Shown here: positions 8,774 through 52,503 of the stretch, one piece after another
Layout: each line of letters opens with the position of its first letter
Position numbering within the stretch: position 1 is the stretch's first letter
DNA from: Candidatus Poribacteria bacterium
GTDB lineage: Bacteria > Poribacteria > WGA-4E > GCA-2687025
Direction of reading: 5' to 3'
Assembly (NCBI GenBank): GCA_963665845.2
Contig: OY762492.1
Coordinates: 1,856,001-1,920,000 of the forward strand
DNA: 64,000 nucleotides
Notes under the pieces: generated by a model
What the model saw: the letters and a program-made list of their open reading frames with translations, nothing else
What the model was told of the DNA's origin: nothing
The model's database searches: none
Program-made: the position numbers and the translations under genes

Positions 8774-8774
8774 G

Positions 8775-19301: not shown

Positions 19302-19363
19302 GTAAACGCTTAAGCGAACGAATACGTTCAAACATAAACACGCGCAGATCAAGAGGTATTCCG

Positions 19364-25415: not shown

Positions 25416-25486
25416 ACCGCTCAGTTTAACGCCTCTTCTGCAGCCTGTCAACCTTTCTCCTTTGAAATCATTTCCCGACCGACCTC

Positions 25487-27823
25487 TCATTTCAACAGAA
25501 CCATGCGCCGCGTCTCTGAAAAGCCGCCCGCCTCAATGCGGACGAAATAGACGCCGCTGGCGGCGGGCGCGCCGAGAGCGTCCTTGCCGTCCCAGTACGC
25601 CGCCTTCTCTTTAACGCGGTAGGAACCTACCGGCAGTTCGCCCAGCTCCAACCGCCTGACGGTTTGACCCGCCGAGTCGTAGATCGTTATCGTCACGGCG
25701 CTTTCTTGCGCCAGATCGAACGGGATCCAGGTTTCAGGGTTGAACGGGTTTGGGTAATTCGGGAGGAGCGCGTTCTTGAATAAATGAGGCGAATTCGGGC
25801 GCTTCACGTCTGACCAGAAAATCGGCAGGTCTTCAACGCGCCACAGTAAAACGCGCCCGTCTTTTCCGCCGCTGATGAGCGAACGGCTGTCGGGAGAAAA
25901 CTCAACCGAATTCACATGCCCGAAATGCCCCTTCAGCGTTTTCTTCAGCGCAAACGTTTCGGCGCTCCAAATCCGTACCGTTCCATCCTCGCCCGCGCCG
26001 GCGATATGCTTGCCGTCAGGCGAGTACGCCATCGTCTGAACGACGCCTTCATGCCCAGCCGTCTTTCCCTTTAACGCGCCATTTTCGGCGCTCCAGACGC
26101 GCACAGTGGAGCGTTCTCCTCCAACCGCTATCGATCTCCCGTCCGGCGACAACGCCAACGCGCCATAGGACCCGAGCCCTTCCGCCGTTCGAAGAAGCTC
26201 CCTCGTCTCCACATCCCAAAGATGGACGATCCCCCCTCCCCCAGCGGCGGCTAAAACGGTTCCGTCTTGTGAAAACGACAAATGAGAAGCCCATCCGCTC
26301 GGAGACGCGAGCGCGTCCGTTGCCTCGCCCGTTGAGATGTCCAGAAAGCGCACGATCTCTTTTTTAACGAGCCTGTTGTTGAAGGCGAGCGTCTTCCCGT
26401 CAGGAGAGTAGGCAAACGAACTTGGAGAGTAGCCTTTCAATTCCACAATCTGCTCTCCCGTCTCCGCGTCCCATACGCCGATCGCATACTGCTCGCTGAA
26501 GCCGGCGACGGTCCGCCCGTCCGGCGAAAACGCGGACGGTCCAGGATAAGCTCTGATGCGCCTCTTCTCCTCCCCTGTCGAAACATCCCAAATGTGAATC
26601 CCGCTGCTCGTAGAGTACGCGTCAACGCCGGAAGTGGCGACCGAAAGCCCATCCGGCGAAAACGAAACCGACCGGATCGGGGAGCTGCCCGGTATCCTGT
26701 ATTCAGCCTGCTTTTGCGCCTGAACATCCCAATAATGAAACGGAGCGGCGGCGGCTAGATAAGAAGAATAACCCGCCAACCGACCTTTCGACGCGAATAG
26801 AAGATTCGTTGTTTCTGGATTCTCAACAGCCGCCAACCGCTCGTTTTTCTTCGGATCCCAAACCTGAATCGTCATGGTACGATTTAAGACGTCTCTTTTA
26901 AAGGCGGCGATGGTTCGGCTGTCCGGCGAAAAGCCGGCAAAGCCGAAGCCGTCGGGCATCTCCATCAACGCTTCGCCCGTACTCAAATCCCAAATGCAGT
27001 TTTTCGCTCCGCTTCTTCCCGCGGCGGCGCTTCCGTCAGGCGCAAACGCCGCATAGGTCAAACCTTCCCCAATGACGCGCAGGCGCTCGCCCGTTGCCGC
27101 ATCCCAAACATAAACCGACGCAACCCGCTCAAAAAATTCCCCCGTGTAGTTGACGCTCGCAAGCGATCGGTTGTCAGGCAAAAACATAATCCGATACCGG
27201 GATGGATAAATCAAGTTGCCCCGCACATCGACAGGCGTATTGAACCGAGTTTTTAACTGCGCCGTTTCCACATCCCAAACATAAACGGCTTCCTTTCCCG
27301 CGCCGGCGAGAAGCCGCCCGTCATGTGAAAACGCCAGCGACTGTATCGGTTCGCCGACCAGCTCAACCGCCGACAGCGTCTCTCCCGTTTCCACATCCCA
27401 AACATAAATCCGCTCCTCCCTTTTGCTTGCGGCAATCGTCCGATTGTCAGGCGAGAAAGCGATGGCTCCGTAATAGCCGAGTTCGTTTGAAACAGCCAGC
27501 ATCTTGCCCGTTTCCACATCCCAAATGCGGGCGTTGTAATAACTAGAGGAAATGAGGTATCGGTCGTCCGCCCAAAACTTCAACCAGTCCACCTCATAAT
27601 CGTACGCTCCAAGCGTTGAGACCGGCTCCCCCGTTTCAGCTCTCCATAGACCGACCAATCCGTTCGTGTCCCCTGTGGCAAGCAGCTCCCCATTGGAAGA
27701 CAACGCCGCCCGCCAGATGGTTCCTGGGGGCCGCCCAACAAGCGTCTGCGCCTCCCCCTTTTCAACCGGCAAGCAAACTGCCGCCAACGCCGCCAAAATC
27801 CATGCCGCCGCGCTTTTTCTCAT
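25487..27823 (-). CDS. Secreted WD40-repeat protein with FlgD-Ig/T9SS-type CTD (array copy 9)
   Basis: Signal peptide; many FSPDG...WD repeats; LLPNYPNPFNPETWIPF...MVLLK. Confidence 0.92.
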   Translation of the reverse strand: MRKSAAAWILAALAAVCLPVEKGEAQTLVGRPPGTIWRAALSSNGELLATGDTNGLVGLWRAETGEPVSTLGAYDYEVDWLKFWADDRYLISSSYYNARIWDVETGKMLAVSNELGYYGAIAFSPDNRTIAASKREERIYVWDVETGETLSAVELVGEPIQSLAFSHDGRLLAGAGKEAVYVWDVETAQLKTRFNTPVDVRGNLIYPSRYRIMFLPDNRSLASVNYTGEFFERVASVYVWDAATGERLRVIGEGLTYAAFAPDGSAAAGRSGAKNCIWDLSTGEALMEMPDGFGFAGFSPDSRTIAAFKRDVLNRTMTIQVWDPKKNERLAAVENPETTNLLFASKGRLAGYSSYLAAAAPFHYWDVQAQKQAEYRIPGSSPIRSVSFSPDGLSVATSGVDAYSTSSGIHIWDVSTGEEKRRIRAYPGPSAFSPDGRTVAGFSEQYAIGVWDAETGEQIVELKGYSPSSFAYSPDGKTLAFNNRLVKKEIVRFLDISTGEATDALASPSGWASHLSFSQDGTVLAAAGGGGIVHLWDVETRELLRTAEGLGSYGALALSPDGRSIAVGGERSTVRVWSAENGALKGKTAGHEGVVQTMAYSPDGKHIAGAGEDGTVRIWSAETFALKKTLKGHFGHVNSVEFSPDSRSLISGGKDGRVLLWRVEDLPIFWSDVKRPNSPHLFKNALLPNYPNPFNPETWIPFDLAQESAVTITIYDSAGQTVRRLELGELPVGSYRVKEKAAYWDGKDALGAPAASGVYFVRIEAGGFSETRRMVLLK

Positions 27824-27835
27824 CTCATCCGCCTT

Positions 27836-30100
27836 TCATTTCAACAGAACCATGCGCCGCGTTTCTGAAAAGCTGCCCGCCTCAATGCGGACAAAATAGA
27901 CGCCGCTGGCGGCAGGCGCGCCGAGGGCGTCCTTGCCGTCCCAGTACGCCGCCTTCTCTTTAGCGCGGTAGGAACCCGCCGCCAATTCGCCCAGCTCCAT
28001 GCGCCTGACCGCTTGACCCGCCGAGTCGTAGATCGTTATCGCCGCGGCGCTTTCTTGCGCCAAATCGAACGGGATCCACGTTTCGGGGTTGAACGGGTTC
28101 GGGTAATTCGGCAGAAGAGTCGTCTGCAATAGCCGAGAATTCGGCTGCCGAAAGTCGGACCAAAGGACAGGCAAATTCTCAAGCAGCCATAGCAGGACGC
28201 GCCCATCCTTCCCGCCGCTGATGAGCGAACTGCTGTCGGGGGAAAACGCGACCGAATTCACCCGCCCTACATGCCCCGACAACGTTCGTTCCAGCTGAAA
28301 CGTCTTCGCGTTCCAAAGCAGTATCAACCCGTCGTTTCCCGCGCTGGCGATCGTCTCTCCGTCTGGAGAATACGCGACGGAATATACATACTTCTTATGC
28401 CCTCTCAGATTTGTCCGAAGATAGCCGCGCTCCGCGCTCCAAATCCGCACAACCAAGTCCTTCCCGCTGGAAACAAGCGTTTTCCCGTCCGGCGAAAAGG
28501 CGATCTCATCCGCCTCCGCGATGCCCACGATGTTTATCGATTGTTTCAGCTCGTCTGTTTCCGTATCCCAAAGGCGAATCGACTCCTCGCCTGCCGCGGC
28601 GAATGCCGCCCCGTCCGGCGAATACGCGATCGCTTGAATGCTGCTGTCATGCTCGTAGGTCTTCTTTAAACGCGCGCTTTTTGCGGCGTCCCAAAAATAC
28701 ACCTTTTTCGTGGCATTACCGACCACATAAGCGAGCGTCTTTCCGTCTGGAGAATAGGCGACCTGCCCCATAAGAGCTTTAGCAATCTCTGCAATCGTCT
28801 CCCCTGTCGGAACTTTCACCGCTTCAAAGCTCACGCCATCGTTGGATGCTACGGTACGGCCGTCCGGCGACAGCGCCGCAGCGCCGGTGGAGGCGGGTGT
28901 CCACATGCGCAGTTCCCCTGTCGACGCGTTCCAAATGCGGGCTATATAGCTCCAATCCCCTCCGACGCTCAAAACGCTTCTGCCGTCTTGGGAAAACTGA
29001 ACCGAGACGACCTCCGATCCATGCCCCTCCAACCCTTGATGCGTCTGAAGCGTCTCTGCATCGTAAATAGCGATGTCCAAGCCGGCAAGCCCGACGATCC
29101 GCGTTGAGTCCGGCGAAAATCTCATTTTATACACGTGGATTTCCCGCTCAACTTTCAACGCCCCTGTCTCAACATCCCATACCCCGAACGAATCTACATC
29201 CGTTCGCCCGGCGGCCAGCTTGCCGTCGGGGGAAAATCCCAGAAACGAGTACACCCCCTCCAGCTCCGATTTGACCGCCCCTGTTTTCACATCCCATAGC
29301 AATATCTTACGCCAAGCCGACGTTTCCTTTTCGCCGTAAGTCGCCAGCGTTGCGCTGTCCGGCGAAAGATAGGCGCGGTACAGACCGGCGTCATAAGACC
29401 GCTTCACCTCGCCCGTAAGCGCGTCCAAAAGATGAACGGCGACGACGTTATCGGCGCGAAAGCTAACAGCAGCGATCGTTCGGCTGTCCGGCAGAAAGAC
29501 CAGATCGCTCAAGTCTTCCGGCGTTTCGATCAAGGCGGTCAGCTTCCCCGTTTTCAAATTCCAAACCTCAACCTGTCCCTCTTCCTCGCAGGCGGCGAGC
29601 CGTCCGTCAGGAGATAGATTCGCTCGAAAAACTATGCCGAAAGAGCTCTTCATTTCCGTTAAAATCCTGCCTGTTTCCGCATCCCGCAGGCGCAAAACTC
29701 CTTCACGACCGCTGGCGATAAACGCCTTGCTGTCCGGCGTAAAGGCGGGGTAGGAACAAAGATACTCATCCTGCGGCAACCGCTCTGGTTTTCCTGTCTC
29801 AACATGCCAATAAGCTTTTCCTGGATAGGCGGCGAGGTAACGTCCATTCGGAGAAAAATACAGCCCATATATCCAAGATTTCCCGTCAATGATTCGCAAT
29901 AATTCGCTTGTCTCCGCGTCCCATATGCGAATCAAAGAGTTTTCCCCGACGCTGGCGATCCTCTTGCCGTCATGCGAGAATTCCGCCCATCTTGCCACCC
30001 CCTGGTGACGCCCAATTTGCCTCTGCGCCTCACCGCTCTCAACCCAGAAACAGAGCGCCGCCAAACCCGCCAAAACCGATGCCGCTGCCCGTGTCATCAT
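27836..30100 (-). CDS. Secreted WD40-repeat protein with CTD (copy 8, most divergent)
   Basis: Same architecture as the other copies. Confidence 0.92.
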   Translation of the reverse strand: MMTRAAASVLAGLAALCFWVESGEAQRQIGRHQGVARWAEFSHDGKRIASVGENSLIRIWDAETSELLRIIDGKSWIYGLYFSPNGRYLAAYPGKAYWHVETGKPERLPQDEYLCSYPAFTPDSKAFIASGREGVLRLRDAETGRILTEMKSSFGIVFRANLSPDGRLAACEEEGQVEVWNLKTGKLTALIETPEDLSDLVFLPDSRTIAAVSFRADNVVAVHLLDALTGEVKRSYDAGLYRAYLSPDSATLATYGEKETSAWRKILLWDVKTGAVKSELEGVYSFLGFSPDGKLAAGRTDVDSFGVWDVETGALKVEREIHVYKMRFSPDSTRIVGLAGLDIAIYDAETLQTHQGLEGHGSEVVSVQFSQDGRSVLSVGGDWSYIARIWNASTGELRMWTPASTGAAALSPDGRTVASNDGVSFEAVKVPTGETIAEIAKALMGQVAYSPDGKTLAYVVGNATKKVYFWDAAKSARLKKTYEHDSSIQAIAYSPDGAAFAAAGEESIRLWDTETDELKQSINIVGIAEADEIAFSPDGKTLVSSGKDLVVRIWSAERGYLRTNLRGHKKYVYSVAYSPDGETIASAGNDGLILLWNAKTFQLERTLSGHVGRVNSVAFSPDSSSLISGGKDGRVLLWLLENLPVLWSDFRQPNSRLLQTTLLPNYPNPFNPETWIPFDLAQESAAAITIYDSAGQAVRRMELGELAAGSYRAKEKAAYWDGKDALGAPAASGVYFVRIEAGSFSETRRMVLLK

Positions 30101-30112
30101 CCAATCTCCTTT

Positions 30113-32455
30113 TTATTTCAACAGAACCATGCGCCGCGTTTCTGAAAAGCTGCCCGCCTCAATGCGGACGAAATAGACGCCGCTGGCGGCGGGCGCGCCG
30201 AGGGCGTCCTTGCCGTCCCAGTACGCCGCTTTCTCTTTAGCGCGGTAGGAACCTGCCGGCAGTTCGCCCAGCTCCAACCGCCTGACCGTTTGACCCGCCG
30301 AGTCGTAGATTGAGATCGTCACGGCTCTTTCTTGCGCCAAATCGAACGGGATCCACGTTTCGGGGTTGAACGGGTTCGGGTAATTCGGCAGAAGCGCGTT
30401 CTTGAAAAGAAGAGGCGAATTAGGGCGTTTAACGTCTGACCAGAAAACAGGTTGATCTTCAAACCTCCACAGCAGAACGCGCCCGTCTTTTCCGCCGCTC
30501 ACAAGCGAACGGCTGTCGGGAGAAAACGCGACCGCGTTCACCCACCCGACATGCCCTCTAAACGTCTTCTTCAGCGCAAATGTTTTGGCGCTCCAAATCC
30601 GTACCGTCCCGTCCTTTCCTCCGCTGGCGATATGCTGTCCGTCAGGCGAATACGCCAAAGCATAAACGGCGCCCTCATGACCGATCATCTTTCCTCTCAA
30701 CGCGCCGTTCTTCGCGCTCCAAACGCGCGCGATGGAGTCTTCTCCTCCAACCGCTATGGATCCTCCGCTCGGCGACAACGCCAGCGCATGAACAGACTTG
30801 ACCCCTTCCACGGTGCGAAGAATCTCCCGCGTCTCCACATCCCAAAGATGGACGTTTACCTCGCTCCCAGAAGCGGCTAAAACGGTTCCGTCTTCTGAAA
30901 ACGCCAGATTAGAAGCCCATCCGCTCGGAGACGTGAACGCCTCCTCCGTCCTTCCCGTTAAGACGTTCAAGAAACGTATGTCGCCGCGGCGATTGGCCGC
31001 ATTGTTGTTGAAGGCGATCTTCTTTCCGTCGGGAGAATAGGCAAACGAACTGGGAGAGTAACCTCTCAATTCCATGATCGTCCTCCCCGTTTCCGCGTCC
31101 CATACGCCGATCATATTGTTGTAGCTGACGCTGGCGATGGTTTGCCCATCCGGCGAAAACGCGGACGGTCCAGAATAGGTTCTGATATGCCTCTTCTCCT
31201 CTCCGGTTGAAACATCCCAGATGCGAATGCCCTCATCGGCGCCCCATATATCGTTGCAGGAGCTGGCGACAGAAAGCCCATCCGGTGAAAACGACAGAGA
31301 CGCAATCTCCGAACTTCCCGCAACGAAGAATTGAGCGTTCAGCCGCCCCTGGATGTCCAAACGAGCGAACTCGGCCTCCCGAAGCGGCATGAACATCCTC
31401 GCCAAAAGCAGGCTGTTTGAGGAGAGCAGGACATAGTTCCGATTGCCAGCCTCTACGACCGACGCCAGATCCGTTGCCTCTACATCCCAAATCTGAATCG
31501 TCCTCGTACCGCGTTCCCTGTTGTCTCTTGAAGCGGCCATGAATCGGCTGTCAGGCGAGAAAACCGGCGGGCTAAAACCTTCCTCAAACATGATCAGCTC
31601 CTCACCCGTTCTCGGGTCCCAAAGACCGGCCTTCCCGCCGTTGTACGCCGTCAGCGCGCTCCCGTCCGGCGCAAACCTAACGTTCGTGAGATTCCCGCCA
31701 AACTCAAGCAGATTCTGCCCAGTTTCCACATCCCAAACATGGACAGACGCAACAACCTTTTGGTCGTACTTTGTATAGCTGACGCTGGCGATGGAGCGGT
31801 TGTCTGGAAGGAACGCAATGCGGCCATCATACGGATACGGCTGCCACCATCCCCGCGAATCGACCGGGGTCTTGAAGCGCGTTTTCAGCTCCCCTGCGGC
31901 TGCGTCCCAAATATACGCTTCCTCATCCCCGGCGCCGGCGGCAAGCCGCCCGTCATGCGAAAAAACAAGCGATGCGATCTCCTCGCTGGAAGCCTCCAGC
32001 TCCCTCTTCAGCTCCCCTGTTTCCACATCCCAAAGCCGTATGGAGTTGTCCCGTTTCTTGACAGCGACGGTCCGCCCGTCAAAAGAATAAGCGAACGAAC
32101 GGACGTTGTCTAATTCGCGCGAAACCGCCTTTAGCTCCCCCGACGCAACATCCCAAATGCGGAAGTCTGAAAAACTACGCCCAACAAGATAGCGGCCGCC
32201 GTCCTTGAACTCCAGCCAGTTCACCTCCTGACGAAACTCCGCCATCGAATGAATTATCCGCCCGGTTTGAGCGTCTAAAAGCCGCACAATCCCATTCGTG
32301 TCGCCCGCCGCAAGCAGTTCGCTGTCAGCGGACAATGCCGCCCGCATGACAGAGCCAGGGTGGCGCGCAAGAACCCTCTGCGCTTCCCCTTCGTCAACCA
32401 AGAGAAGCCAACACGCCAAACCGATCCATGCCAAGCATGCCCCGCGTTTCATCAT
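30113..32455 (-). CDS. Secreted WD40-repeat protein with CTD (copy 7)
   Basis: Same architecture as the other copies. Confidence 0.92.
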   Translation of the reverse strand: MMKRGACLAWIGLACWLLLVDEGEAQRVLARHPGSVMRAALSADSELLAAGDTNGIVRLLDAQTGRIIHSMAEFRQEVNWLEFKDGGRYLVGRSFSDFRIWDVASGELKAVSRELDNVRSFAYSFDGRTVAVKKRDNSIRLWDVETGELKRELEASSEEIASLVFSHDGRLAAGAGDEEAYIWDAAAGELKTRFKTPVDSRGWWQPYPYDGRIAFLPDNRSIASVSYTKYDQKVVASVHVWDVETGQNLLEFGGNLTNVRFAPDGSALTAYNGGKAGLWDPRTGEELIMFEEGFSPPVFSPDSRFMAASRDNRERGTRTIQIWDVEATDLASVVEAGNRNYVLLSSNSLLLARMFMPLREAEFARLDIQGRLNAQFFVAGSSEIASLSFSPDGLSVASSCNDIWGADEGIRIWDVSTGEEKRHIRTYSGPSAFSPDGQTIASVSYNNMIGVWDAETGRTIMELRGYSPSSFAYSPDGKKIAFNNNAANRRGDIRFLNVLTGRTEEAFTSPSGWASNLAFSEDGTVLAASGSEVNVHLWDVETREILRTVEGVKSVHALALSPSGGSIAVGGEDSIARVWSAKNGALRGKMIGHEGAVYALAYSPDGQHIASGGKDGTVRIWSAKTFALKKTFRGHVGWVNAVAFSPDSRSLVSGGKDGRVLLWRFEDQPVFWSDVKRPNSPLLFKNALLPNYPNPFNPETWIPFDLAQERAVTISIYDSAGQTVRRLELGELPAGSYRAKEKAAYWDGKDALGAPAASGVYFVRIEAGSFSETRRMVLLK

Positions 32456-32466
32456 CCAATTTCCTT

Positions 32467-34791
32467 TTATTTCAACAGAACCATGCGCCGCGTTTCTGAA
32501 AAGCCGCCCGCCTCAATGCGGACAAAATAGACGCCGCTAGCCGCCGGCGCGCCGAGGGCGTCCTTGCCGTCCCAGTACGCCGCCTTCTCTTTAGCGCGGT
32601 AGGAACCCGCCGGCAGTTCGCCCAGCTCCAACCGCCTGACCGCTTGACCCGCCGAGTCGTAGATTGAGATCGTCACGGCGCTTTCTTGCGCCAGATCGAA
32701 CGGAATCCACGTTTCGGGGTTGAACGGGTTCGGGTAATTCGGGAGGAGCGCGTTCTTGAATAAAAGAGGCGAATTCGGGCGCTTGACGTCTGACCAGAAA
32801 ATCGGCAGGTCTTCAACGCTCCACAGCAGAACGCGGCCATCCTTCCCGCCGCTGATAAGCGAAAGGCTGTCGGGGGAAAACGCAACGGAGCTCACATACC
32901 CGACATGCCCGGTCAACGTTCTTTTAAGTTCAAACGTCTCGGCGTCCCAGATGCGTATCGCCCCGTCATCGTCCCCGACAGCGATCAGCGCGCCGTCGGG
33001 CGAATAGGCGGCGGAGACAACGGCTCCTTCATGCCCTTCCAGCTCCGCCCGCAGCGCGCCGTATCGAACACCCCAGAGACGCGCAGCCGAATCCTCCCCG
33101 CCGGTCAAGAGCGTTTTGCCGTCCGGCGAGAAGGCAAGCGTTTTCACACGCTCTCCATCCGCAAACGTTCGAATCAAATTGCCCGATTCGGAATTCCACA
33201 AAAACGCCCCGTCATACCCCCCGACCGCCAGCGTTTGGCCGTCCGGCGAATACACAATCGAACTAGGCGCCCATTGATCTCCTTTCAGGTCTGAAAACAC
33301 GTCGCCGGAATCGATCCGCCAGATATGGACGTCTTTGCCTTGATAGTTGTAATCGGTGAACGCGAGCGATTTGCCGTCCGGCGAAAATGCAAGCGACGAC
33401 GGTCTGTAGTCCGCCAATTCCGCTGCAATCTCTCCCGTCTCGGCGTTCCTAATCTGTATGCCGTCATATTTCAAGGCTGCGATGTATTGACCGTCCTGCG
33501 AAAGAGCCGCAGGCCCCTTATAATATCCGTACTGCGCAGTCGCCTGTCCTGTTAAAAGATCCCAAATCCGAATCGAGCTGTCCCCAGTCCAAATGCGCCG
33601 AGGCGAGCTGAAGACGTATCGGCCGTCAGGCGAAAGAGAAACGGACGCAATCGGCGTGTTGTTCGCGGGCGCCTCGCCTTTTACCTCTCCCGTCTCGATG
33701 TCCCAGACGCGTGTTGTTCTGGACCGATAATAGTCTTCCCAAACGGGGGTTGAGGCGGCCGTACGCCCGTCCGGCGACAGCGCCGCCAGATATAAGATTC
33801 CCCGAAACGTCGAGACAATTTCCCCTGTCTCCGCATCCCATATTTGCGCCTGATTCGAATCGTATCCGACGACCAATTTGCTGCTGTCTTCTGAGAAGAA
33901 CTGCCGATCGGACGCAACAAAAGAATCCCTTCGGTTTGTCCTTAGAATCCTCTCCGTTTCCAGTTCCCACAGGGTAACGACATCGTTGCCGTTCACGGTT
34001 AGCAGCCTTCGTCCGTCGGGAGAGAACTTGGCGATCTCAAAATCTCCGCCAAAGGAGGATGTCATCTTCCCTGTTTTCACATCCCATATCTCCGCCGTTC
34101 CGGTTCCGTCCCCGTATTCGTATCTGAAGCGAACGCGCGCCATCGACTGGTTGTCGGGAAGAAACGCAATGGGGGAACGAGACGCCCTACTCCGTCCAGG
34201 AATGCTGATCCGATGTTTTACCCGCAGCGTCTCAGCGTTCCAAATATAGAGACCGTCTTCCCAAGGAGCGGCAATTAGCAGCCCGTCATGCGAATAAACC
34301 ATAGAACCTAGATGAACGCCGACATCCTCCAACTCCCCTTTCATCTTCCCCGACAGAAAATCCCAGACGCTCACAACGCTGTATTCGTTGCGGACGGCGA
34401 TCGTTCGCCGGTCCGGCGACAGGGCGACATCGTAACAAATGCCCAATTTGTCCGAAATTGGGAGACGTTCGCCGGTCTTCAGGTCATGCGCCTGCAGCCT
34501 GGAAAAGCTGGAGTTGAGTAGATAGCGGCTCCCGGGCCAAAAGCGCATCCAGTCCACCTCCGATATATTGCCGTCCAGCGTCTGTATGAGCGTTCCTGTT
34601 GAGTAGTCCCAGAGCTGTATCGCCCCGCCTTCCCCGCCGCTCGCAAGCGTCTTGCCGTCAGGAGACAGCGCCAACGAAGCGTCGCTTCCTGGATGCGCCC
34701 CAACAACTCTCTGCGCAAAGCCGTCCGCCGCCGACAGCCAAAATGCCGCCAGCGCCGCCAAAATCGATGCCGCTGTCCGTCTCATCATCAA
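32467..34791 (-). CDS. Secreted WD40-repeat protein with CTD (copy 6, first gene after the internal promoter)
   Basis: Same architecture; AGGAGG RBS upstream. Confidence 0.92.
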   Translation of the reverse strand: MMMRRTAASILAALAAFWLSAADGFAQRVVGAHPGSDASLALSPDGKTLASGGEGGAIQLWDYSTGTLIQTLDGNISEVDWMRFWPGSRYLLNSSFSRLQAHDLKTGERLPISDKLGICYDVALSPDRRTIAVRNEYSVVSVWDFLSGKMKGELEDVGVHLGSMVYSHDGLLIAAPWEDGLYIWNAETLRVKHRISIPGRSRASRSPIAFLPDNQSMARVRFRYEYGDGTGTAEIWDVKTGKMTSSFGGDFEIAKFSPDGRRLLTVNGNDVVTLWELETERILRTNRRDSFVASDRQFFSEDSSKLVVGYDSNQAQIWDAETGEIVSTFRGILYLAALSPDGRTAASTPVWEDYYRSRTTRVWDIETGEVKGEAPANNTPIASVSLSPDGRYVFSSPRRIWTGDSSIRIWDLLTGQATAQYGYYKGPAALSQDGQYIAALKYDGIQIRNAETGEIAAELADYRPSSLAFSPDGKSLAFTDYNYQGKDVHIWRIDSGDVFSDLKGDQWAPSSIVYSPDGQTLAVGGYDGAFLWNSESGNLIRTFADGERVKTLAFSPDGKTLLTGGEDSAARLWGVRYGALRAELEGHEGAVVSAAYSPDGALIAVGDDDGAIRIWDAETFELKRTLTGHVGYVSSVAFSPDSLSLISGGKDGRVLLWSVEDLPIFWSDVKRPNSPLLFKNALLPNYPNPFNPETWIPFDLAQESAVTISIYDSAGQAVRRLELGELPAGSYRAKEKAAYWDGKDALGAPAASGVYFVRIEAGGFSETRRMVLLK

Positions 34792-34819
34792 GCCTCCTGT
34801 TGCCTCTCAACGCTTGCTT

Positions 34820-34835
34820 AGCAAAATTGGCGCCA
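34820..34835 (-). promoter_or_regulatory. Putative sigma-54 -24/-12 promoter
   Basis: Minus strand TGGCGCCAATTTTGCT (GG-N10-GC), in the only long gap of the array, ~30 bp before the start codon. Confidence 0.75.
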
Positions 34836-34875
34836 GACCAGAAACCGCCTATTTGCGAAAATACTCGCCGAAAAA

Positions 34876-34912
34876 CGTACGTTATGGTACGCCTCCCGGA
34901 CGAAAACGTACG
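34876..34912. promoter_or_regulatory. Two putative activator (UAS) sites
   Basis: CGTACGTTATGGTACG (34876) and CGGACGAAAACGTACG (34897), 21 bp apart. Confidence 0.5.
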
Positions 34913-34919
34913 CCCCGAG

Positions 34920-37262
34920 TTATTTCAACAGAACCATGCGCCGCGTTTCTGAAAAGCCGCCCGCTTCGATGCGGACGAAATAGACGCCGCTGGCGGCAGG
35001 CGCGCCGAGGGCGTCCTTGCCGTCCCAGTACGCCGCCTTCTCTTTAGCGCGGTAGGAACCCGCCGGCAATTGCCCCAGCTCCATGCGCCTGACCATTTGA
35101 CCCGCCGAATCATAGATCGCGATCGTCACGGCGCTTTCTTGCGCCAGATCGAACGGAATCCACGTTTCAGGGTTGAACGGGTTTGGGTAATTCGGCAGAA
35201 GCGCGTTCTTCAAAAGAAGAGGCGAATTCGGACGCTTCACGTCTGACCAGAAAACAGGTAGCTCTTCAAACCTCCACAGCAGAACGCGCCCATCCTTTCC
35301 GCCGCTCACAAGCGATTTACTGTCGGGAGAAAACGCAACCGCGTTCACCCAACCTGCATGCCCCCTCAACGTCTTCTTCAGGTCATATGTCTTGGCGCTC
35401 CAAATCCGTACCGTCCCGTCCTTTCCTCCGGTGGCGATGTGCTGTCCGTCAGGCGAATACGCCAAAGCATGAACGGCGCCCTCATGACCAATCATCTTTC
35501 CTGTCAACGCGCCGTTCTTCGCGCTCCAAACGCGCGCGATGGAATCTTCTCCTGCAACCGCTATCGATTCCCCGCTCGGCGACAACGCCAGCGCATGAAA
35601 ATACCCGACCGCTTCCACGGTTTGAAGAATCTCCCGCGTCTCCACATCCCAAAGATGGACGTTTTCCTCGCTCCCAGAAGCGGCTAAAACGCTTCCGTCT
35701 CCTGAAAAGGATAGATTGTAAATCCGCCCGCTCGGAGCCGTGAGCGCTTCCTCCGTTGTTCCCGTTGAGATGTCCAAAAAACGCACGACCCCTTGTTCCT
35801 TGGCAGCATTGCTGTTGAAGGCGAGCGTCTTTCCATCAGGGAAATAGGCAAACGAACCGGAAGAGTAGCCTTCCAATTCCACGATCTGCTCCCCTGTTTC
35901 CGCGTCCCATACGCCGATCATATCGCCGTATCTTCTGGCCGAGGCGACGGTCCGCCCGTCCGGCGAAAACGCGGATGGTCCAGAAAAGGCTTCGATATGC
36001 CTGTTCTCCTTCCCTGTTGAAACATCCCAGATGCGAATGCCGTAATCCGTGATCCATCCTTTTTCGCAGGAGCTGGCGACAGAGCGCCCGTCCGGCGAAA
36101 ACGACAACGACGCAATCTCCGAACTTCCCGGAACTAAGAATTGAGCGGTCTCCCGCCCCTGAATGTCCCAACGAGTGAACTCTGCCCCCCAAAGCGTTAT
36201 GACGATCGTCGCCGTCAACAGACCACTCGACGACAAGAAAGCATGGTACTTATCGCCGCTCTCTATGACCGACCTCAGATCCTTTGTCTCCACATCCCAA
36301 ATTTGAATCGTTGTCGTATCGCTTTCCCTGTTGTATCTTGAAGCGGCCATGAGCCTGCTGTCAAGTGAAAACCTAGGCGCGCCAAACCCCTCCTCAAATG
36401 CGACCAGCTCCTCCCCTGTTCTGAGGTCCCAGAGACCGGCATTTCCGCCGTTGTACCCCGCCAGCGCGCTTCCGTCCGGCGCAAACCTGGCGCCCGTAAA
36501 ATAGTCCCCAAAATCAAGCTGATTCTGCCCAGTTTCCGCATCCCATACATGGACAGCCGCAATATCCCTTTGGTCGCGCGTTGTATAGGTAACGCTGGCG
36601 ATGGAGCGGCTGTCGGGAAGGAACGCAATGCGGTGATCATGCGGATACAAAACCCGCCTTGCCCGCGAATCAGACGGCGTCTTGAAGCGCGTTTTCAGTT
36701 GACCCGTTGCCGCGTCCCAAATATAAACATCCTCATCTCCGGCGCCGGCGGCAAGCCGCCCGTCAGGAGAAAAAGCAAGCGCGTCAATATCCTCGCTGAC
36801 AGCCTCTATCTCCCTCTTCAGCTCCCCCGTTTCCACATCCCAAAGCTTTACGGGGCCGTCCCATTTCTTGGCAGCGACGGTCCGCCCGTCAGAAGAAAAA
36901 GCGAACGGACTGACGAGGTCCAATTCGCGCGAAACAGCCTTCAGCTCCCCCGACGCCGCATCCCAAATGCGAAGGTTCGAAAAACTGTACCCAACAAGAT
37001 ACCGATCGCCCCCCTTGAACCCCAGCCAGTCCACTTCCTGACAAAACTGCGCCATCGAATGAATGATCCGCCCGGTTCGAGCGTCCAAAAGCCGCACAAG
37101 TCCATTCGTGTCGCCCGTCGCAAGCATCTCCCCGTCAGCCGACAGCGCCGCCTCATAGACGGTTCCAGGATGCTGCCCAACAATCCTCTGCGCAAAACCG
37201 TTCGCAGCCGACAGCCAAAATACTGCCAATGCAGCCAAAATCGACACCGCAGCCCGTCTCAT
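34920..37262 (-). CDS. Secreted WD40-repeat protein with CTD (copy 5)
   Basis: Same architecture as the other copies. Confidence 0.92.
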   Translation of the reverse strand: MRRAAVSILAALAVFWLSAANGFAQRIVGQHPGTVYEAALSADGEMLATGDTNGLVRLLDARTGRIIHSMAQFCQEVDWLGFKGGDRYLVGYSFSNLRIWDAASGELKAVSRELDLVSPFAFSSDGRTVAAKKWDGPVKLWDVETGELKREIEAVSEDIDALAFSPDGRLAAGAGDEDVYIWDAATGQLKTRFKTPSDSRARRVLYPHDHRIAFLPDSRSIASVTYTTRDQRDIAAVHVWDAETGQNQLDFGDYFTGARFAPDGSALAGYNGGNAGLWDLRTGEELVAFEEGFGAPRFSLDSRLMAASRYNRESDTTTIQIWDVETKDLRSVIESGDKYHAFLSSSGLLTATIVITLWGAEFTRWDIQGRETAQFLVPGSSEIASLSFSPDGRSVASSCEKGWITDYGIRIWDVSTGKENRHIEAFSGPSAFSPDGRTVASARRYGDMIGVWDAETGEQIVELEGYSSGSFAYFPDGKTLAFNSNAAKEQGVVRFLDISTGTTEEALTAPSGRIYNLSFSGDGSVLAASGSEENVHLWDVETREILQTVEAVGYFHALALSPSGESIAVAGEDSIARVWSAKNGALTGKMIGHEGAVHALAYSPDGQHIATGGKDGTVRIWSAKTYDLKKTLRGHAGWVNAVAFSPDSKSLVSGGKDGRVLLWRFEELPVFWSDVKRPNSPLLLKNALLPNYPNPFNPETWIPFDLAQESAVTIAIYDSAGQMVRRMELGQLPAGSYRAKEKAAYWDGKDALGAPAASGVYFVRIEAGGFSETRRMVLLK

Positions 37263-37277
37263 CGTCCATTCTCCTCT

Positions 37278-39608: not shown

Positions 39609-39623
39609 CGTCCATTCTCCTCT

Positions 39624-41942: not shown

Positions 41943-41957
41943 CGTCCATTCTCCTCT

Positions 41958-44306
41958 TTATTTCAACAGAACCATGCGCCGCGTTTCTGAAAAACTGCCC
42001 GCCTCAATGCGGACGAAATAGACGCCGCTGGCGGCGGGCGCGCCGAGGGCGTCCCTGCCGTCCCAGTATGCCGCTTTCTCTTTAGCGCGGTAGGAACCCG
42101 CCGCTAATTGCCCCATCTCCATGCGCCTGACCATTTGACCCGCCGAGTTGTAGACCGAGATCGTCACGGCGCTTTCTTGCGCCAGATCGAACGGTATCCA
42201 CGTTTCGGGGTTGAACGGGTTTGGGTAATTCGGGAGGAGCGCGTTCTTGAAAAGAAGAGGCGAATTCGGACGCTTCACGTCTGACCAGAAAACAGGTTGA
42301 TCTTCAAATCTCCACAGCAGGACGCGGCCGTCTTTTCCGCCGCTCACAAGCGAACGGCTGTCGGGAGAAAACGCAACCGAATTCACATGCCCGAAATGCC
42401 CCCTCAATGTCTTCTCCAGCTGAAACGTCTTGGCGCTCCAAATCCGTACCGTTCCGTCTTTGCCTGCGCTGGCGATACGCTGTCCGTCAGGCGAATACGC
42501 TACAGCATGGACGGCGCCCTCATGTCCGGTCATCTTTCCTCTCAAGGCGCCGTTCTTTGCGCTCCAGACGCGCACAATCGAATCCTCGTCTCCAACCGCT
42601 ATGGATCCCCCGCTCGGCGACAACGCCAGCGCATAATCCGCATAAATAGACCCAACCTCTTCCACGGTTCGAAGAATCTCCCTCGTCTTCACATCCCAAA
42701 GATGGACGCTTCCCCTGCCAACGGCAGCTAAAACGCTTCCGTCTTTTGAAAACTTCAGCTCCGAAGCCCGCCCGCTCGGAGCCGTGAGCGCCTCCTCCGC
42801 CTTCCCCGTTAAGATGTCCAGAAAGCGCACGATCCCTTGTTTATGAGCAGTGTCGTTAAAGGCGAGCGTCTTTCCGTCAGGAGAATAGGCAAACGAACTC
42901 GGAGAGCGGTCGCTCAATTCCAAGATCGGTTTTCCCGTCTCCGCGTCCCATACGCCGATCGCATAACGACCCGGTCTGACGCAGGCAACGGTCCGCCCGT
43001 CCGGCGAAAACGCGGAAGGTCCAGGATAGGCTTTGATATTCCTTTTCTCCTCCCCGGCGGAGACATCCCAAATGCGAATGGCATCGTCCAAGGACCAAAG
43101 CCCTCCTTCGGCGCACGAGCTGGCGACAAAGCGCCCGTCCGGCGAAAACGATAAAGACGCAATCTCCGAACTCCCCCATACTGAGAATTGAGCGGTTTGC
43201 CGCCCTTGAATGTCCCAGCGAGTGTACTCTGTGTCTTGAAACGGCGCGCTCCTCCTCGTTAACAGACCATTTGACGACAACAAAATTCGGTTCCGATGGC
43301 CGCTCTCTACGACCGACAACAGCTTTTTTGCCTCCATATCCCAAATTTGAATTGTCCTCGTACCGCTTTCCCTGTTGTCTCTTGAAGCGGCCATGAGCCT
43401 GCTGTCCGATGAAAAAATCGGTCGGCTAAAGCCCTCCTCAAACGCGATCAACTCCTCTCCCGTTCTCAAATCCCAAAGACGCGCCTTCCCGCCGCTGTAC
43501 GCCGTTAGGGCGCTTCCGTCCGGCGCTAACATGGCATCCGTGAGACCTTCCCCAAACTCAAACCGATTCTGCCCAGTCTCCGCATCCCAAACATGGACAG
43601 CGGCATGATCCTTTTGATCGTACCTTGTATGGCTAAGGCTGGCGATCAATCGGTTGCCGGGGAGGAACGCAATGCGGTAATCATGCAGATACGGCCGCCA
43701 TAACCGCGAATCAACCGGCGTTTTGAAGCGCGTTTTCAATTGACCCGCCGCCGCGTCCCAAATATAAACACTCTCATTCCCGGCGCCGGCGACGAGCCTT
43801 CCGTCATGCGAAAAAACAAGACCGTAAATACGATCGCTCACCGGCTCCATCTCTCTTTTCAGCTGCCCCGTTTCCACATCCCAAAGCTGTATTGCGTTGT
43901 CCGATTTCTCGGCGGCGATCGTCTGCCCGTCAGGAGAAAATGCGAATGCGCCGACGCTGTCCAATTCTTCCGATACCGACTTCAGCTTCCCATTCGCCGC
44001 ATCCCAAATGCGGATTTCTAAAAAACTAAACACAGCAAGATACCGGCCGCCCCCCTTGAACCCCAACCACTCGCCTTCCCATCTAGGCGCCTCCATCGAA
44101 TGAATCATGCGCCCTGTTTGAGCGTCCCAGATCCGCACAAGCCTATTTGTGTCCCCCGTTGCAAGCAGCTCCCCGTCAGACGACAACGCCGCCTGGTAAA
44201 TAGTTCCAGGATGCCGCCCAACAACCCTCTGCGCTTCCCCCTCGTCAACCAAGAGAAGCCAACACGCCAAGCCCGCCAATGCCAAACATGCCCCGCGTTT
44301 CATCAT
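41958..44306 (-). CDS. Secreted WD40-repeat protein with CTD (copy 2)
   Basis: Same architecture; likely start MMKRG at 44306 after AAGGAG. Confidence 0.92.
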   Translation of the reverse strand: MMKRGACLALAGLACWLLLVDEGEAQRVVGRHPGTIYQAALSSDGELLATGDTNRLVRIWDAQTGRMIHSMEAPRWEGEWLGFKGGGRYLAVFSFLEIRIWDAANGKLKSVSEELDSVGAFAFSPDGQTIAAEKSDNAIQLWDVETGQLKREMEPVSDRIYGLVFSHDGRLVAGAGNESVYIWDAAAGQLKTRFKTPVDSRLWRPYLHDYRIAFLPGNRLIASLSHTRYDQKDHAAVHVWDAETGQNRFEFGEGLTDAMLAPDGSALTAYSGGKARLWDLRTGEELIAFEEGFSRPIFSSDSRLMAASRDNRESGTRTIQIWDMEAKKLLSVVESGHRNRILLSSNGLLTRRSAPFQDTEYTRWDIQGRQTAQFSVWGSSEIASLSFSPDGRFVASSCAEGGLWSLDDAIRIWDVSAGEEKRNIKAYPGPSAFSPDGRTVACVRPGRYAIGVWDAETGKPILELSDRSPSSFAYSPDGKTLAFNDTAHKQGIVRFLDILTGKAEEALTAPSGRASELKFSKDGSVLAAVGRGSVHLWDVKTREILRTVEEVGSIYADYALALSPSGGSIAVGDEDSIVRVWSAKNGALRGKMTGHEGAVHAVAYSPDGQRIASAGKDGTVRIWSAKTFQLEKTLRGHFGHVNSVAFSPDSRSLVSGGKDGRVLLWRFEDQPVFWSDVKRPNSPLLFKNALLPNYPNPFNPETWIPFDLAQESAVTISVYNSAGQMVRRMEMGQLAAGSYRAKEKAAYWDGRDALGAPAASGVYFVRIEAGSFSETRRMVLLK

Positions 44307-44317
44307 CCAATCTCCTT

Positions 44318-46651
44318 TCATTTTAAAAGAACCATGCGCCGCGTTTCTGAAAAGCTGCCCGCCTCAATGCGGACGAAATAGACGCCGCTGGCGGCGGGCG
44401 CGCCGAGGGCGTCCCTGCCGTCCCAGTACGCCGCCTTCTCTTTAGCGCGGTAGGAACCTGCCGGCAATTTGCCCAGTTCCAACCGCCTTACGGTTTGACC
44501 CGCCGAGTCGTAGATCGTTATCGTCACGGCGCTTTCTTGCGCCAAATCGAACGGAATCCACGTTTCAGGGTTGAACGGGTTTGGGTAATTCGGCAGAAGC
44601 GCGTTCTTCAAAAGAAGAGGCGAATTCGGGCGTTTAACGTCTGACCATAAAACAGGTTGATCTTCAAACCTCCACAGCAGGACGCGGCCGTCTTTTCCGC
44701 CGCTCACAAGCGATTTGCTGTCGGGAGAAAACGCAACCGCGTTCACCCACCCGACATGACCCCTCAACGTCTTCTTCAGCGCAAACGTTTTGGCGCTCCA
44801 GATCCGTACCGTCCCGTCCTTTCCTCCGCTGGCGATACGCTGTCCGTCAGGCGAGTACGCCAAGGCATGAACGGCGCCCTCATGACCAATCATCTTTCCT
44901 GTCAACGCGCCGTTCTTCGCGCTCCAGACGCGCGCGACCGAGTCTTCTCCTGCAACCGCTATCGATTCCCCGCTCGGCGACAACGCCAGCGCATGAACAT
45001 ACCCGAACCCTTCCACCGTTCGAAGAATCTCCCGTGTCTCCATATCCCAAAGATAGACCTTCTCCTCGCTCCCAGAAGCGGCTAACAAGCTTCCGTCTCT
45101 TGAAAACGTCAGCTTAGAAATCCATCTGCTAGGAGACATGAGCGTCTCCTCCGCCTTCCCGGTTGAGATGTCTAAGAAACGCACGACCTCTTGTTTCTTG
45201 ACCGCGTCATCGAAGGCGAGCGTCTTTCCGTCAGGAGAATAGGCAAACGAACTGGGAGAGTAGCCGTTCAATTCCACGATCTGCTCGCCTGTTTCGGCGT
45301 CCCATACGCCGATCGTGTCATCATGGCTGACGCCGGCGACGGTCCGCCCGTCCGGCGAAAATATGGACGGTTCAGAATAGGTACGGATATGCCTCTTTTC
45401 CTCCGCGGTTGAAACGTCCCAGATGCGAATGCCTTCATCTGTGAGCCATATATCGTTGCAGGAGCTGGCAACAAAAAGCCCGTCCGGCGAAAACGACAAC
45501 GACTCAATTTCCGAAGTACCCGCAACTGAGAATTGAGCGGTCTCCCGTCCCTGTATGTCCATACGAGTGAACTCTGCCGCTCGAAGCACCATGATCATCC
45601 TCGTCAACAACAGACCATTTGACGACAGCAAAATATAGTACTGATCGCGGTTCTCTATGACCGACGCCAGATCCCTTGCCTTCACATCCCAAATTTGAAT
45701 CGTCCTCGTATCGCTTTCCCTGTCGTATCTTGAAGCGGCCATGAACCTGCTGTCTGGTGAAAAACCTGATGGGCCAAACCCCTCCTCAAACTCGATCAGC
45801 TCCTCTCCAGTTCTGAGGTCCCAAAGACTGGCCTTTCCGTCGTTGCGCGCCGCGAGCGCGCTTCCGTCCGGCGCAAATCTGGCTCCCGTGAGATAGCCGC
45901 CAAACTCAAGCAGATTCTGTCCCGTTTCCGCATCCCAAACATGGACAACCGCAATATCCTGTCGGTCGTGTATGGTACGGGTAAGGCTGGCGATGGAGCG
46001 GTTGTCTGAAAGGAACGCAATGCGGTAATCCCGCGGATACAATATCCCCCTATCCAGCGAGTCGACCGGCGTCTTGAAGCGCGTTTTCAGCTCCCCTGTC
46101 GCCGCGTCCCAAATATAAACGCCCTCCTCCCCGGCGCCGGCAACAAGCCGCCCGTCATGCGAAAAAACAAGCGATTCCACCTCCTCGATGACAGCCTCCA
46201 GCTCCCTCTTCAGCGCCCCCGTTTCCACATCCCAAAGCCGTATGGGGGCGTCCCATTTATTGGCGGCGACGGTCCGCCCGTCAGGAGAGAAAGCGAACGG
46301 ATAGACGCGGTCCAATTCGCGCGAAACAGCCTTCAGCTCCCCCGACGCCGCGTCCCAAATGCGAAGGTTTAAAAAACTGTACGCAACAAGATAGCGGCCG
46401 CCCTTGAACCACAGCCTGTCCACTTCCTGACGAAACTCTGCCATCGAATGAATTATCCGCCCGGTTCGAGCGTCTACAAGCCGCACAATCCCATTCGAGT
46501 CGCCCGCCGCAAGCAGCTCGCCGTCAGCGGACAATGCCGCTGCCATGACAGACCCAGGATGCCGCCCAACAACTCTCTGCGCTTCCCCCTCGTCAACCAA
46601 GAGAAGCCAACACGCCAAGCCCGCCAAAATACAGATCGCCGTTCGCCTCAT
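44318..46651 (-). CDS. Secreted WD40-repeat protein with CTD (copy 1)
   Basis: Same architecture; likely start MRRT at 46651 after AAGGAG. Confidence 0.92.
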   Translation of the reverse strand: MRRTAICILAGLACWLLLVDEGEAQRVVGRHPGSVMAAALSADGELLAAGDSNGIVRLVDARTGRIIHSMAEFRQEVDRLWFKGGRYLVAYSFLNLRIWDAASGELKAVSRELDRVYPFAFSPDGRTVAANKWDAPIRLWDVETGALKRELEAVIEEVESLVFSHDGRLVAGAGEEGVYIWDAATGELKTRFKTPVDSLDRGILYPRDYRIAFLSDNRSIASLTRTIHDRQDIAVVHVWDAETGQNLLEFGGYLTGARFAPDGSALAARNDGKASLWDLRTGEELIEFEEGFGPSGFSPDSRFMAASRYDRESDTRTIQIWDVKARDLASVIENRDQYYILLSSNGLLLTRMIMVLRAAEFTRMDIQGRETAQFSVAGTSEIESLSFSPDGLFVASSCNDIWLTDEGIRIWDVSTAEEKRHIRTYSEPSIFSPDGRTVAGVSHDDTIGVWDAETGEQIVELNGYSPSSFAYSPDGKTLAFDDAVKKQEVVRFLDISTGKAEETLMSPSRWISKLTFSRDGSLLAASGSEEKVYLWDMETREILRTVEGFGYVHALALSPSGESIAVAGEDSVARVWSAKNGALTGKMIGHEGAVHALAYSPDGQRIASGGKDGTVRIWSAKTFALKKTLRGHVGWVNAVAFSPDSKSLVSGGKDGRVLLWRFEDQPVLWSDVKRPNSPLLLKNALLPNYPNPFNPETWIPFDLAQESAVTITIYDSAGQTVRRLELGKLPAGSYRAKEKAAYWDGRDALGAPAASGVYFVRIEAGSFSETRRMVLLK

Positions 46652-46720: not shown

Positions 46721-46789
46721 TGTCCAAATTGAGAGCGAAAACGGGAGCCGCTGTCCAAATTATGAACAGCGCTGTATCAAAAATGGACA
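46721..46789. promoter_or_regulatory. Putative enhancer-binding-protein sites (TGT-N11-ACA)
   Basis: TGTCCAAATTATGAACA (46752) and TGTATCAAAAATGGACA (46773), plus partial TGTCCAAATT (46721); spacings 21 and 31 bp. Confidence 0.6.
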
Positions 46790-46800
46790 GGCGCGGGGAT

Positions 46801-47981: not shown

Positions 47982-48036
47982 GGCGATCTGCCGTCTGGAA
48001 ACATCAGCGAATTCGATTCGCTCCAAGGCGTCTTTA

Positions 48037-48045: not shown

Positions 48046-48069
48046 CAAGACACGGCAGAGGAGAGATTT

Positions 48070-52499: not shown

Positions 52500-52503
52500 A
52501 GCC

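What the first reader, a model, noticed from the sequence alone, without database searches (positions are those of the whole stretch)
25487..46651. Nine-gene array of secreted WD40 propellers with constant framework and hypervariable loops: a candidate antibody-like surface receptor repertoire
Seen: nine head-to-tail ~750-780 aa paralogues, each a signal peptide, a WD40 region and a near-identical ~110-aa CTD. Equivalent loops vary in length and sequence and are rich in W/Y/R between conserved anchors. After KTP: VDSRGWWQPYPYDG, SDSRARRVLYPHDH, VDSRLWRPYLHDY, VDSLDRGILYPRDY, LDDFKTVPRPSNY, each followed by RIAF. After ASS: CNDIWGADEG, CEKGWITDYG, CAEGGLWSLDDA, RNIGWLTDDN, each followed by IR(I/V)WD. 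Known: WD40 propellers bind ligands through top-face loops, and eukaryote-like repeat proteins are enriched in sponge symbionts. Inference: about two propellers per protein, forming a diversified binding repertoire (host, prey, phage or glycan recognition) displayed through a shared sorting signal.
Basis: partly seen in the sequence, partly recalled or inferred. Interest (0 to 1): 0.85.

Follow-up and report, generated by a model that had tools for sequence, protein, structure and literature searches.

The report
Reshuffled array of exported propeller proteins
Nine neighbouring genes of a bacterium that is likely a Poribacterium encode predicted double-propeller proteins that are likely exported; the face that probably binds partners changes about three times faster than the opposite face, and the export tails are likely kept alike by recombination, but this looks like a slowly reshuffled family of an already reported protein type, not an antibody-like system.

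Summary
The array is real: nine genes, each a signal peptide, a predicted 8+7-blade WD40 double propeller and a T9SS type-A tail. The congener is a Ca. Poribacteria genome; this architecture was reported for Poribacteria in 2014. Both quoted loops lie on the top face, where dN/dS is 0.86 against 0.27 on the bottom. The syntenic congener locus has 4 genes, not 9. Tails group by genome while bodies group by old subfamily, and signal peptides are swapped between bodies: recombination homogenises the export module. The antibody-like reading is weak. The framework is not constant (30-75% identity). Positive selection (LRT 10-29) vanishes with multi-nucleotide changes (LRT 3.5). 8 of 10 other WD40 sets in this genome show the same top-face excess. 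No reverse transcriptase was found, and gene bodies were identical in three samples. The scan earlier noted a giant WD40-tail gene elsewhere in this genome, not this array. Verdict: a birth-and-death array of likely exported binding proteins, ligand unknown.

The parts
44318..46651 (-). g1, subfamily A, 777 aa from ATG 46651 (the ORF finder starts at GTG 46669); first gene of the array
   Evidence: AF2 model
41958..44303 (-). g2, subfamily A (most divergent), 781 aa
39624..41942 (-). g3, subfamily B, 772 aa
37278..39608 (-). g4, subfamily C, 776 aa; blade 1 is A-like (80-81% nt to g1/g5 against 48-70% in blades 2-14); signal peptide 99% nt identical to g5
34920..37262 (-). g5, subfamily A body with a g4-type signal peptide, 780 aa
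34789..34919 (-). 131-nt spacer with short palindromic repeats; a 199-nt homologue precedes the B-type gene h3 in G001
32467..34788 (-). g6, subfamily B, 773 aa
30113..32455 (-). g7, subfamily A, 780 aa
27836..30100 (-). g8, subfamily E, 754 aa, 30-35% identical to the other bodies but with an array-type tail (93% nt to the nearest array tail)
25487..27823 (-). g9, subfamily D, 778 aa; last gene, orthologue h4 in G001 (83% aa)
46022..46072 (-). 'KTP' loop in g1 (aa 194-210): D-A loop between blades 4 and 5 of the 8-bladed propeller, top face, low pLDDT; omega 1.52 (post hoc, gap-containing)
45431..45457 (-). 'ASS' loop in g1 (aa 399-407): B-C loop of blade 9, 7-bladed propeller, top face; omega 1.07
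44330..44587 (-). T9SS type-A sorting domain of g1 (TIGR04183); same in all nine; homogenised within the array
19289..20557 (+). PorV/PorQ-family gene (NF033709 115 bits, cut-off 90), candidate part of the export system
2843..9773 (+). PorU-like sortase (NF033707 320 bits, cut-off 420) followed by a second PorV-like gene (85 bits, cut-off 90)

Best explanation
The nine genes are a birth-and-death tandem array of predicted 8+7-blade WD40 double propellers that are likely exported through Sec and a T9SS-like SprA/PorV/PorU route and likely bind outside partners (sponge proteins or matrix most probably) through their top faces. Copies are likely gained and lost by unequal crossing-over in the conserved block that runs last blade - tail - ribosome site - next signal peptide, and gene conversion likely keeps that block alike within a genome. 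Occasional crossovers inside bodies swap blocks of blades. Top-face loops accumulate changes under relaxed selection, perhaps with episodes of positive selection, over species-level time. Shown: anatomy, face asymmetry, copy-number difference, tail/body tree conflict, signal-peptide swaps. Inferred: export, surface display, binding, the ligand, and the crossover mechanism.
For: TIGR04183 9 of 9. SprA_N over cut-off in G000 and 4 of 5 genomes, TIGR04189 182 bits vs cut-off 200, PorV over cut-off in 5 of 5. Poribacterial SprA is detected as protein in a sponge proteome (bioRxiv 10.64898/2026.10.20.760564, passages). 9 vs 4 genes at the syntenic locus, 6 vs 2 at a second array. Body tree groups orthologues; tail tree groups by genome (100/99); AU tests reject 4 of 4 body clades in the tail (p 0.0001-0.005) and the genome clade in bodies (p 4e-30). 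Tail dS median 0.32 within G000 even where body dS is saturated, 0.61 between genomes. Tails 93-97% nt to the nearest array tail, at most 83% to tails elsewhere; exact tracts up to 107 nt in tails and junctions. h2 has a g4-type body but a g2-type signal peptide (96% aa). PHI P=12/500 for g1,g2,g5,g7 and 0/500 with h1. Body omega 0.37-0.52 vs median 0.12 in 15 flanking genes at similar dS (0.25-0.36 vs 0.33). In propeller 1 of g2 vs P0010 the top face is as conserved as the bottom (89 vs 88%), which fits fixed specificities (1 of 9 comparisons, post hoc).
Against: No ligand, export or expression data. GldM was not found (0 of 5; control silent), so the motor is unknown. Synonymous-only Sawyer test within G000 bodies is not significant (182/1000), and PHI for g1,g2,g5,g7,g9 is marginal (26/500). 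The clearest blade mosaics are in database proteins that may be assembly chimeras. Average top-face omega under 1 is also what drift on floppy loops gives. Only two genomes have DNA.
Confidence: 0.6

Rival explanations
1. Near-neutral expansion: the proteins are exported coat or scaffold components whose top loops drift because nothing constrains them; copy number and tail homogenisation are by-products of recombination between repeats.
For: Top-face omega 0.86, or 0.69 with multi-nucleotide changes, never clearly above 1 as a class. Same excess in 6 of 8 tail-less WD40 sets. Site test not significant with the multi-nucleotide model (LRT 3.5 and 1.5).
Against: All nine frames are intact and subfamilies A-D persist in both species. 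Tyr is doubled in top loops. Orthologous loop alleles recur across genomes (g1/h1/P0002/P0003, g2/P0010). Standard site tests were significant in 14 of 14 runs.
Confidence: 0.22
2. Antibody-like repertoire under an ongoing arms race (host immunity, phage or grazers), with loops diversified fast within populations by a dedicated mechanism.
For: Face-restricted variation; M2a vs M1a LRT 24.4, 3.8% of sites at omega 3.1, and 6 of 6 sites with posterior above 0.8 in top loops or at the first residue of strand A; KTP loop omega 1.52; blade mosaics among database homologues, PHI 0/500.
Against: PF00078 0 of 2 genomes while the control rang in 3 of 14. Contigs of 0.8-2.1 kb over g1-g8 bodies show 0 differences in three samples of one study (contigs drop rare variants, and one run may be the source sample). 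Paralogue dS of 0.27 or more dates the copies at or before the species split. Signal lost under the multi-nucleotide model.
Confidence: 0.12
3. The tail is not a surface anchor here: the proteins are released into the host tissue as effectors, or stay periplasmic because the T9SS-like machinery is incomplete.
For: SprA and PorU score under their equivalog cut-offs; GldM not found; Kamke 2014 found no Por structural genes (passages).
Against: SprA-, PorV-, PorU- and weak PorP-like genes are present in G000 together with 54 tail-bearing ORFs.
Confidence: 0.06

Closest known systems
Poribacterial WD40 proteins with a TIGR04183 tail (Kamke et al. 2014, PMC3909097; passages read)
   Same: WD40 repeats plus Por/T9SS C-terminal sorting domain, abundant in Poribacteria; host interaction proposed.
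   Different: The passages seen describe no tandem arrays, no face-wise evolution and no recombination, and state that Por structural genes were not found; here SprA-, PorV- and PorU-like genes are present. Supplementary tables S8/S9 were not read.
Podospora HNWD (het-d/het-e) WD40 allorecognition repertoire (Paoletti et al. 2007, PMC1805685; passages read)
   Same: Multigene WD40 family, recombination between loci, variable positions in D-A and B-C loops on the top face.
   Different: HNWD proteins are intracellular NACHT receptors whose WD repeats themselves undergo concerted evolution with clear positive selection. Here the bodies keep old subfamilies, the export module is what is homogenised, and positive selection is equivocal.
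Highly repetitive prokaryotic WD40 proteins (Hu et al. 2017, PMC5587647; passages read)
   Same: Diversity concentrated at top-face hotspot sites.
   Different: There the unit of duplication is the repeat; here it is the whole gene, with an export tail.
T9SS type-A cargo of Bacteroidota (TIGR04183; mechanism recalled, not read here)
   Same: Signal peptide plus C-terminal Ig-like sorting domain; SprA, PorV and PorU homologues in the genome.
   Different: SprA and PorU under equivalog cut-offs, GldM not found; a Trp motif precedes the tail; secretion not shown.
Diversity-generating retroelements and antibody or VLR systems (recalled)
   Same: Variable loops on a conserved scaffold.
   Different: No reverse transcriptase found, no within-population variation seen, copies are old.

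Membership tests
Poribacterial WD40 + TIGR04183 proteins | Host is Poribacteria | tested here: met
   Same-genus relative carries the syntenic locus and its record is titled Ca. Poribacteria; closest database homologues are named Poribacteria.
Poribacterial WD40 + TIGR04183 proteins | WD40 repeats (PF00400) | tested here: met
   9 of 9 over cut-off; fold matches WD40 propellers, Z 38.8, rmsd 2.0, 282 aligned
Poribacterial WD40 + TIGR04183 proteins | C-terminal TIGR04183 domain | tested here: met
   9 of 9 over cut-off
T9SS type-A cargo | N-terminal Sec signal peptide | tested here: met
   By eye on 9 of 9 N-termini; helix at 2-16 in the model; no predictor run
T9SS type-A cargo | SprA translocon in the genome | tested here: inconclusive
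   2205-aa ORF: PF14349 over cut-off, TIGR04189 181.7 vs cut-off 200
T9SS type-A cargo | PorV and PorU attachment genes | tested here: inconclusive
   PorV family over cut-off; PorU-like 320 vs cut-off 420
T9SS type-A cargo | PorKLMN motor | tested here: inconclusive
   Only GldM searched: 0 of 5 genomes, control 0 of 14
T9SS type-A cargo | Export, tail cleavage, surface anchoring | not testable with these tools
   Needs proteomics
Fungal HNWD-type WD40 repertoire | NACHT domain, intracellular receptor | tested here: not met
   The whole length is taken by signal peptide, 15 blades and tail
Fungal HNWD-type WD40 repertoire | WD40 region groups by species (concerted evolution) | tested here: not met
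   Bodies group by orthologue; genome clade rejected, p-AU 4e-30. The tail does group by genome.
Fungal HNWD-type WD40 repertoire | Positive selection at D-A and B-C loop positions | tested here: inconclusive
   Significant with standard models, not with multi-nucleotide changes
Diversity-generating retroelement target | Reverse transcriptase in the genome | tested here: not met
   PF00078 0 of 2 genomes (90% and 91% complete); control 3 of 14
Diversity-generating retroelement target | Template/variable repeat pair with adenine-specific changes | not tested
   Exact repeats of 45 nt or more listed (top 40 shown) lie in tails, junctions, signal peptides and late blades; adenine bias not computed
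Antibody-like fast diversification | Loop variants within a population | tested here: inconclusive
   0 differences in long contigs over bodies in 3 samples of 1 study; contigs drop rare variants

The most novel reading that the evidence does not exclude
Poribacteria run a germline, recombination-driven receptor library: over 100 WD40 genes per genome, many in tandem cassettes, in which a homogenised export module serves as the crossover handle and blocks of blades carrying distinct Tyr/Trp-bearing top-face loops are reassorted between paralogues and strains to make new host- or phage-binding specificities. It would be an extracellular bacterial counterpart of the fungal HNWD repertoire.
Probability: 0.3. 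Interest if true: 0.7.

Novelty: new member of a known kind. Interest (0 to 1): 0.38.

Why it matters
Eukaryote-like repeat proteins of sponge symbionts are proposed to mediate host contact, but their partners are unknown. This array gives a compact test set: nine proteins with one export tail and different top faces, orthologues in a second species, and natural blade chimeras for mapping specificity. It also shows how such repertoires likely turn over (export module homogenised, bodies kept and swapped) and that a T9SS-like SprA/PorV/PorU set sits in the same genome. It does not show a new diversification mechanism.

Tried and rejected
Metagenome scan with the body alignment: 80 loci kept of 307 confirmed, all generic WD40s at 25-38% identity, not used. 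Search of 31 genomes: full-length relatives at E<=1e-60 in 2 of 31, at most 39 candidates scored per genome, so 'not found in those searched'. No RNA holder listed, which is no evidence on expression. In one search the difference and joint tables at 85% likeness are dominated by cross-mapping between paralogue tails and other organisms and were not used; only the long-contig table was. A finer read check of within-population variation was not obtained, so rare loop variants remain open. Class-level omega above 1: no pair of 15 was significantly above 1; blades 8-11 top reached 1.15 (LRT 3.5) and fell to 0.92 after masking indels. Positive selection as a firm claim was rejected after (multi-nucleotide terms can also absorb true selection or short conversion tracts). 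g8 was left out of the codon models because it has no close partner; blade 15 and the tail were left out because of conversion. DGR rejected. Purifying selection alone as the cause of tail similarity rejected: synonymous sites are homogenised too. No complex prediction was run: no candidate partner. Look-up of earlier findings by sequence: none. Paper searches listed no study of tandem WD40 arrays or their recombination in Poribacteria; subscription papers (for example the 2019 Poribacteria pangenome paper, recalled, not seen) and supplements were not covered.

Full report
Observation. Nine minus-strand ORFs fill 25487-46651, named g1 (44318-46651) to g9 (25487-27823) in reading order. Gaps are 11-15 nt with a ribosome-site-like purine run, except 131 nt between g5 and g6. 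All nine pass WD40 PF00400 and the T9SS type-A tail TIGR04183. The framework is not constant: bodies (aa 25-620) are 30-75% identical and form subfamilies A (g1, g2, g5, g7), B (g3, g6), C (g4), D (g9) and E (g8). Last blade plus tail is 82-96% identical. Top loops are enriched in Tyr (5.8% vs 2.8% in long genome ORFs and 0.5% in bottom loops), slightly in Trp, not in Arg.

Organism and context. The same-genus genome G001 holds the syntenic locus, and the matching titled record is Ca. Poribacteria. G000 has 143 WD40-like ORFs among 20,702 six-frame ORFs, 34 with the tail, and 54 tail-bearing ORFs. Of 112 strong WD40 genes, many lie in 23 tandem clusters; this one is the largest. Kamke et al. 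2014 already reported WD40 proteins with TIGR04183 in Poribacteria and found no Por structural genes (PMC3909097, passages). Here a 2205-aa SprA-like gene, PorV-family genes (window 19289-20557 over cut-off, 8775-9773 just under) and PorU-like genes (window 2843-8773, under cut-off) are present; GldM was not found but the control was silent. A 2026 preprint detects poribacterial SprA as protein (10.64898/2026.10.20.760564, passages). Export is therefore likely, not shown.

Structure. The AlphaFold2 model of g1 (pLDDT 80, pTM 0.72) has 15 blades and resembles tandem WD40 propellers. Seven-bladed structures align to the N-terminal strand plus residues 379-663 (Z 38.8, rmsd 2.0, 282 aligned). Residues 31-380 folded alone (pLDDT 89) match best to chains such as ODA16, Ika8 and Rsa4 (Z 23-24, rmsd about 4, about 300 aligned); that these are eight-bladed is recalled. 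I assigned faces from strand order, not from coordinates: D-A and B-C loops are the top face (as described in PMC1805685, passages). The KTP loop is a D-A loop of propeller 1, the ASS loop a B-C loop of propeller 2. How the two top faces lie relative to each other was not determined.

Selection. With 12 of 13 genes (g8 left out) and my own codon models, omega is 0.86 (0.82-0.90) for the top face, 0.27 for bottom loops and 0.37 for core strands; with indel flanks masked, 0.76, 0.27, 0.38. The KTP loop gives 1.52 (post hoc, gapped), the ASS loop 1.07. Fifteen flanking genes have median omega 0.12 at dS 0.33, and orthologous bodies have omega 0.37-0.52 at dS 0.25-0.36. M2a beats M1a on a tree (LRT 24.4; 10.9 masked) and in 12 of 12 tree-free runs (LRT 9.8-29.1), with high-posterior sites on the top face. 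Allowing double and triple changes removes the significance (LRT 3.5, p 0.17; masked 1.5) and lowers top omega to 0.69. In a control with one automatic face assignment, this array gives 0.89 and 8 of 10 other WD40 sets give 0.65-0.96, including 6 of 8 sets without a tail; the exceptions are 0.41 (high dS) and 0.23. Hotspot diversity is described for prokaryotic WD40s (PMC5587647, passages), and relaxed plus positive selection for paralogous repeats in general (PMC5120217, passages). So the asymmetry is real and not special to this array; positive selection is unresolved.

Recombination and turnover. G001 has four genes (h1-h4; types A, C, B, D) where G000 has nine, and two where G000's second array has six. 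Bodies group by subfamily across genomes; tails group by genome (100/99). AU tests reject 4 of 4 body clades in the tail data and the genome clade in the body data. Tail dS is 0.32 (median) among G000 genes, many with saturated bodies, and 0.61 between genomes. Each array tail is 93-97% nt identical to its nearest array neighbour and tails elsewhere reach at most 83%; exact tracts up to 107 nt lie in tails and across stop-start junctions. Signal peptides are decoupled from bodies: g4 and g5 share 99% nt, and h2 has a g4-type body with a g2-type signal. Inside bodies, g4 has an A-like first blade, and A and D types share blades 10-15 at about 80% against about 60% before. PHI is 12/500 for the four A genes of G000 and 0/500 with h1, 26/500 with g9; the synonymous-only Sawyer test is 182/1000. 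Twelve further database proteins look like blade-block chimeras, for example P0006 with A-type blades 1-10 and h4-like blades 11-15 at 93-100%; short-read assembly chimeras cannot be excluded for these.

Fast diversification. No RVT_1 match in G000 or G001 (control 3 of 14). In three DNA runs of one study, 21 listed contigs of 0.8-2.1 kb lying wholly within the array's gene bodies (g1 covered in one run only, g9 outside the stretch laid) carry 0 other letters. Contigs drop rare variants and one run may be the source sample. Paralogue dS of 0.27 or more puts the duplications at or before the species split.

Mechanism. Most likely a birth-and-death array of exported binding proteins: Sec export, T9SS-like translocation by the tail (inferred), binding by top faces (inferred; sponge proteins or matrix is my guess from the phylum's habitat, with no direct evidence), copy gain and loss by crossing-over in the tail-junction-signal block (inferred from shown homogenisation), and slow top-face change. 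Confidence 0.6. Rivals: neutral loop drift on coat proteins (0.22), fast antibody-like system (0.12), released or periplasmic proteins (0.06).

Known versus new. It is a member of the poribacterial WD40 + TIGR04183 class. It works somewhat like the fungal HNWD repertoire but fails that family's tests (no NACHT, bodies not concerted). WD40 repeats were not enriched in sponge MAGs overall (PMC8163846, passages). Seven paper searches listed no description of these arrays' evolution; no supplements were read, and those of the preprint are closed. Earlier scan notes cover a giant WD40-tail gene and a poly-C tract elsewhere in this genome. Interest 0.38; new member of a known kind; novel case 0.3 probability, 0.7 interest.

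Noticed in passing
window, each array gene just before the tail (g1 aa ~666-673); G000 genome-wide: A Trp motif (W-[GAS]-x-hydrophobic-K/R) precedes the tail in 18 of 54 tail-bearing ORFs, including both WD40 arrays, and a similar motif ends 37 other ORFs of the genome. It may be a second C-terminal sorting or anchoring signal; a similar motif in related phyla is recalled, not checked.
   Followed up: partly
G000:C1:949701-963938 and L104:11031-15697: Second WD40 + tail array: 6 genes in G000, 2 at the syntenic locus of G001; top-face omega 0.74. It lies about 8 kb from the SprA-like gene (C1:935094-941711).
   Followed up: partly
G000:C1:3890446-3912714 (L100): Seven tandem tail-bearing non-WD40 repeat proteins (613-1701 aa, weak HAF-repeat hit) with near-identical sequence before the tail, a third locally homogenised array.
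   Followed up: partly
window 23522-25490: Downstream of g9, overlapping its stop: a DUF5683 gene, then two lipoprotein-like paralogues without family hits (three in G001). The 201-aa one has omega 0.83 against its G001 orthologue, the highest of 15 flanking genes.
   Followed up: partly
window 46752-46790: A 39-nt element upstream of g1 has two 92-95% copies elsewhere in the genome (C1:2607887, C1:1854027); possibly a terminator, operator or small repeat.
   Followed up: no
window ~48000-50300, 51738-53853, 57586-60699: Genes with no counterpart at the syntenic place in G001 (TPR protein, methyltransferase-like genes with weak restriction-modification or anti-phage hits): variable islands beside the array.
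   Followed up: no
L017:8998-13520 (G001:C13): A g8/C1:97480-like locus in G001 has one intact gene and one that reads as two ORFs with a stop in the tail, a likely decaying copy.
   Followed up: no
G000:C1:3392730-3396607: One WD40 pair departs from the genome-wide pattern: top-face omega 0.23, equal to the bottom; a useful conserved-ligand control.
   Followed up: no
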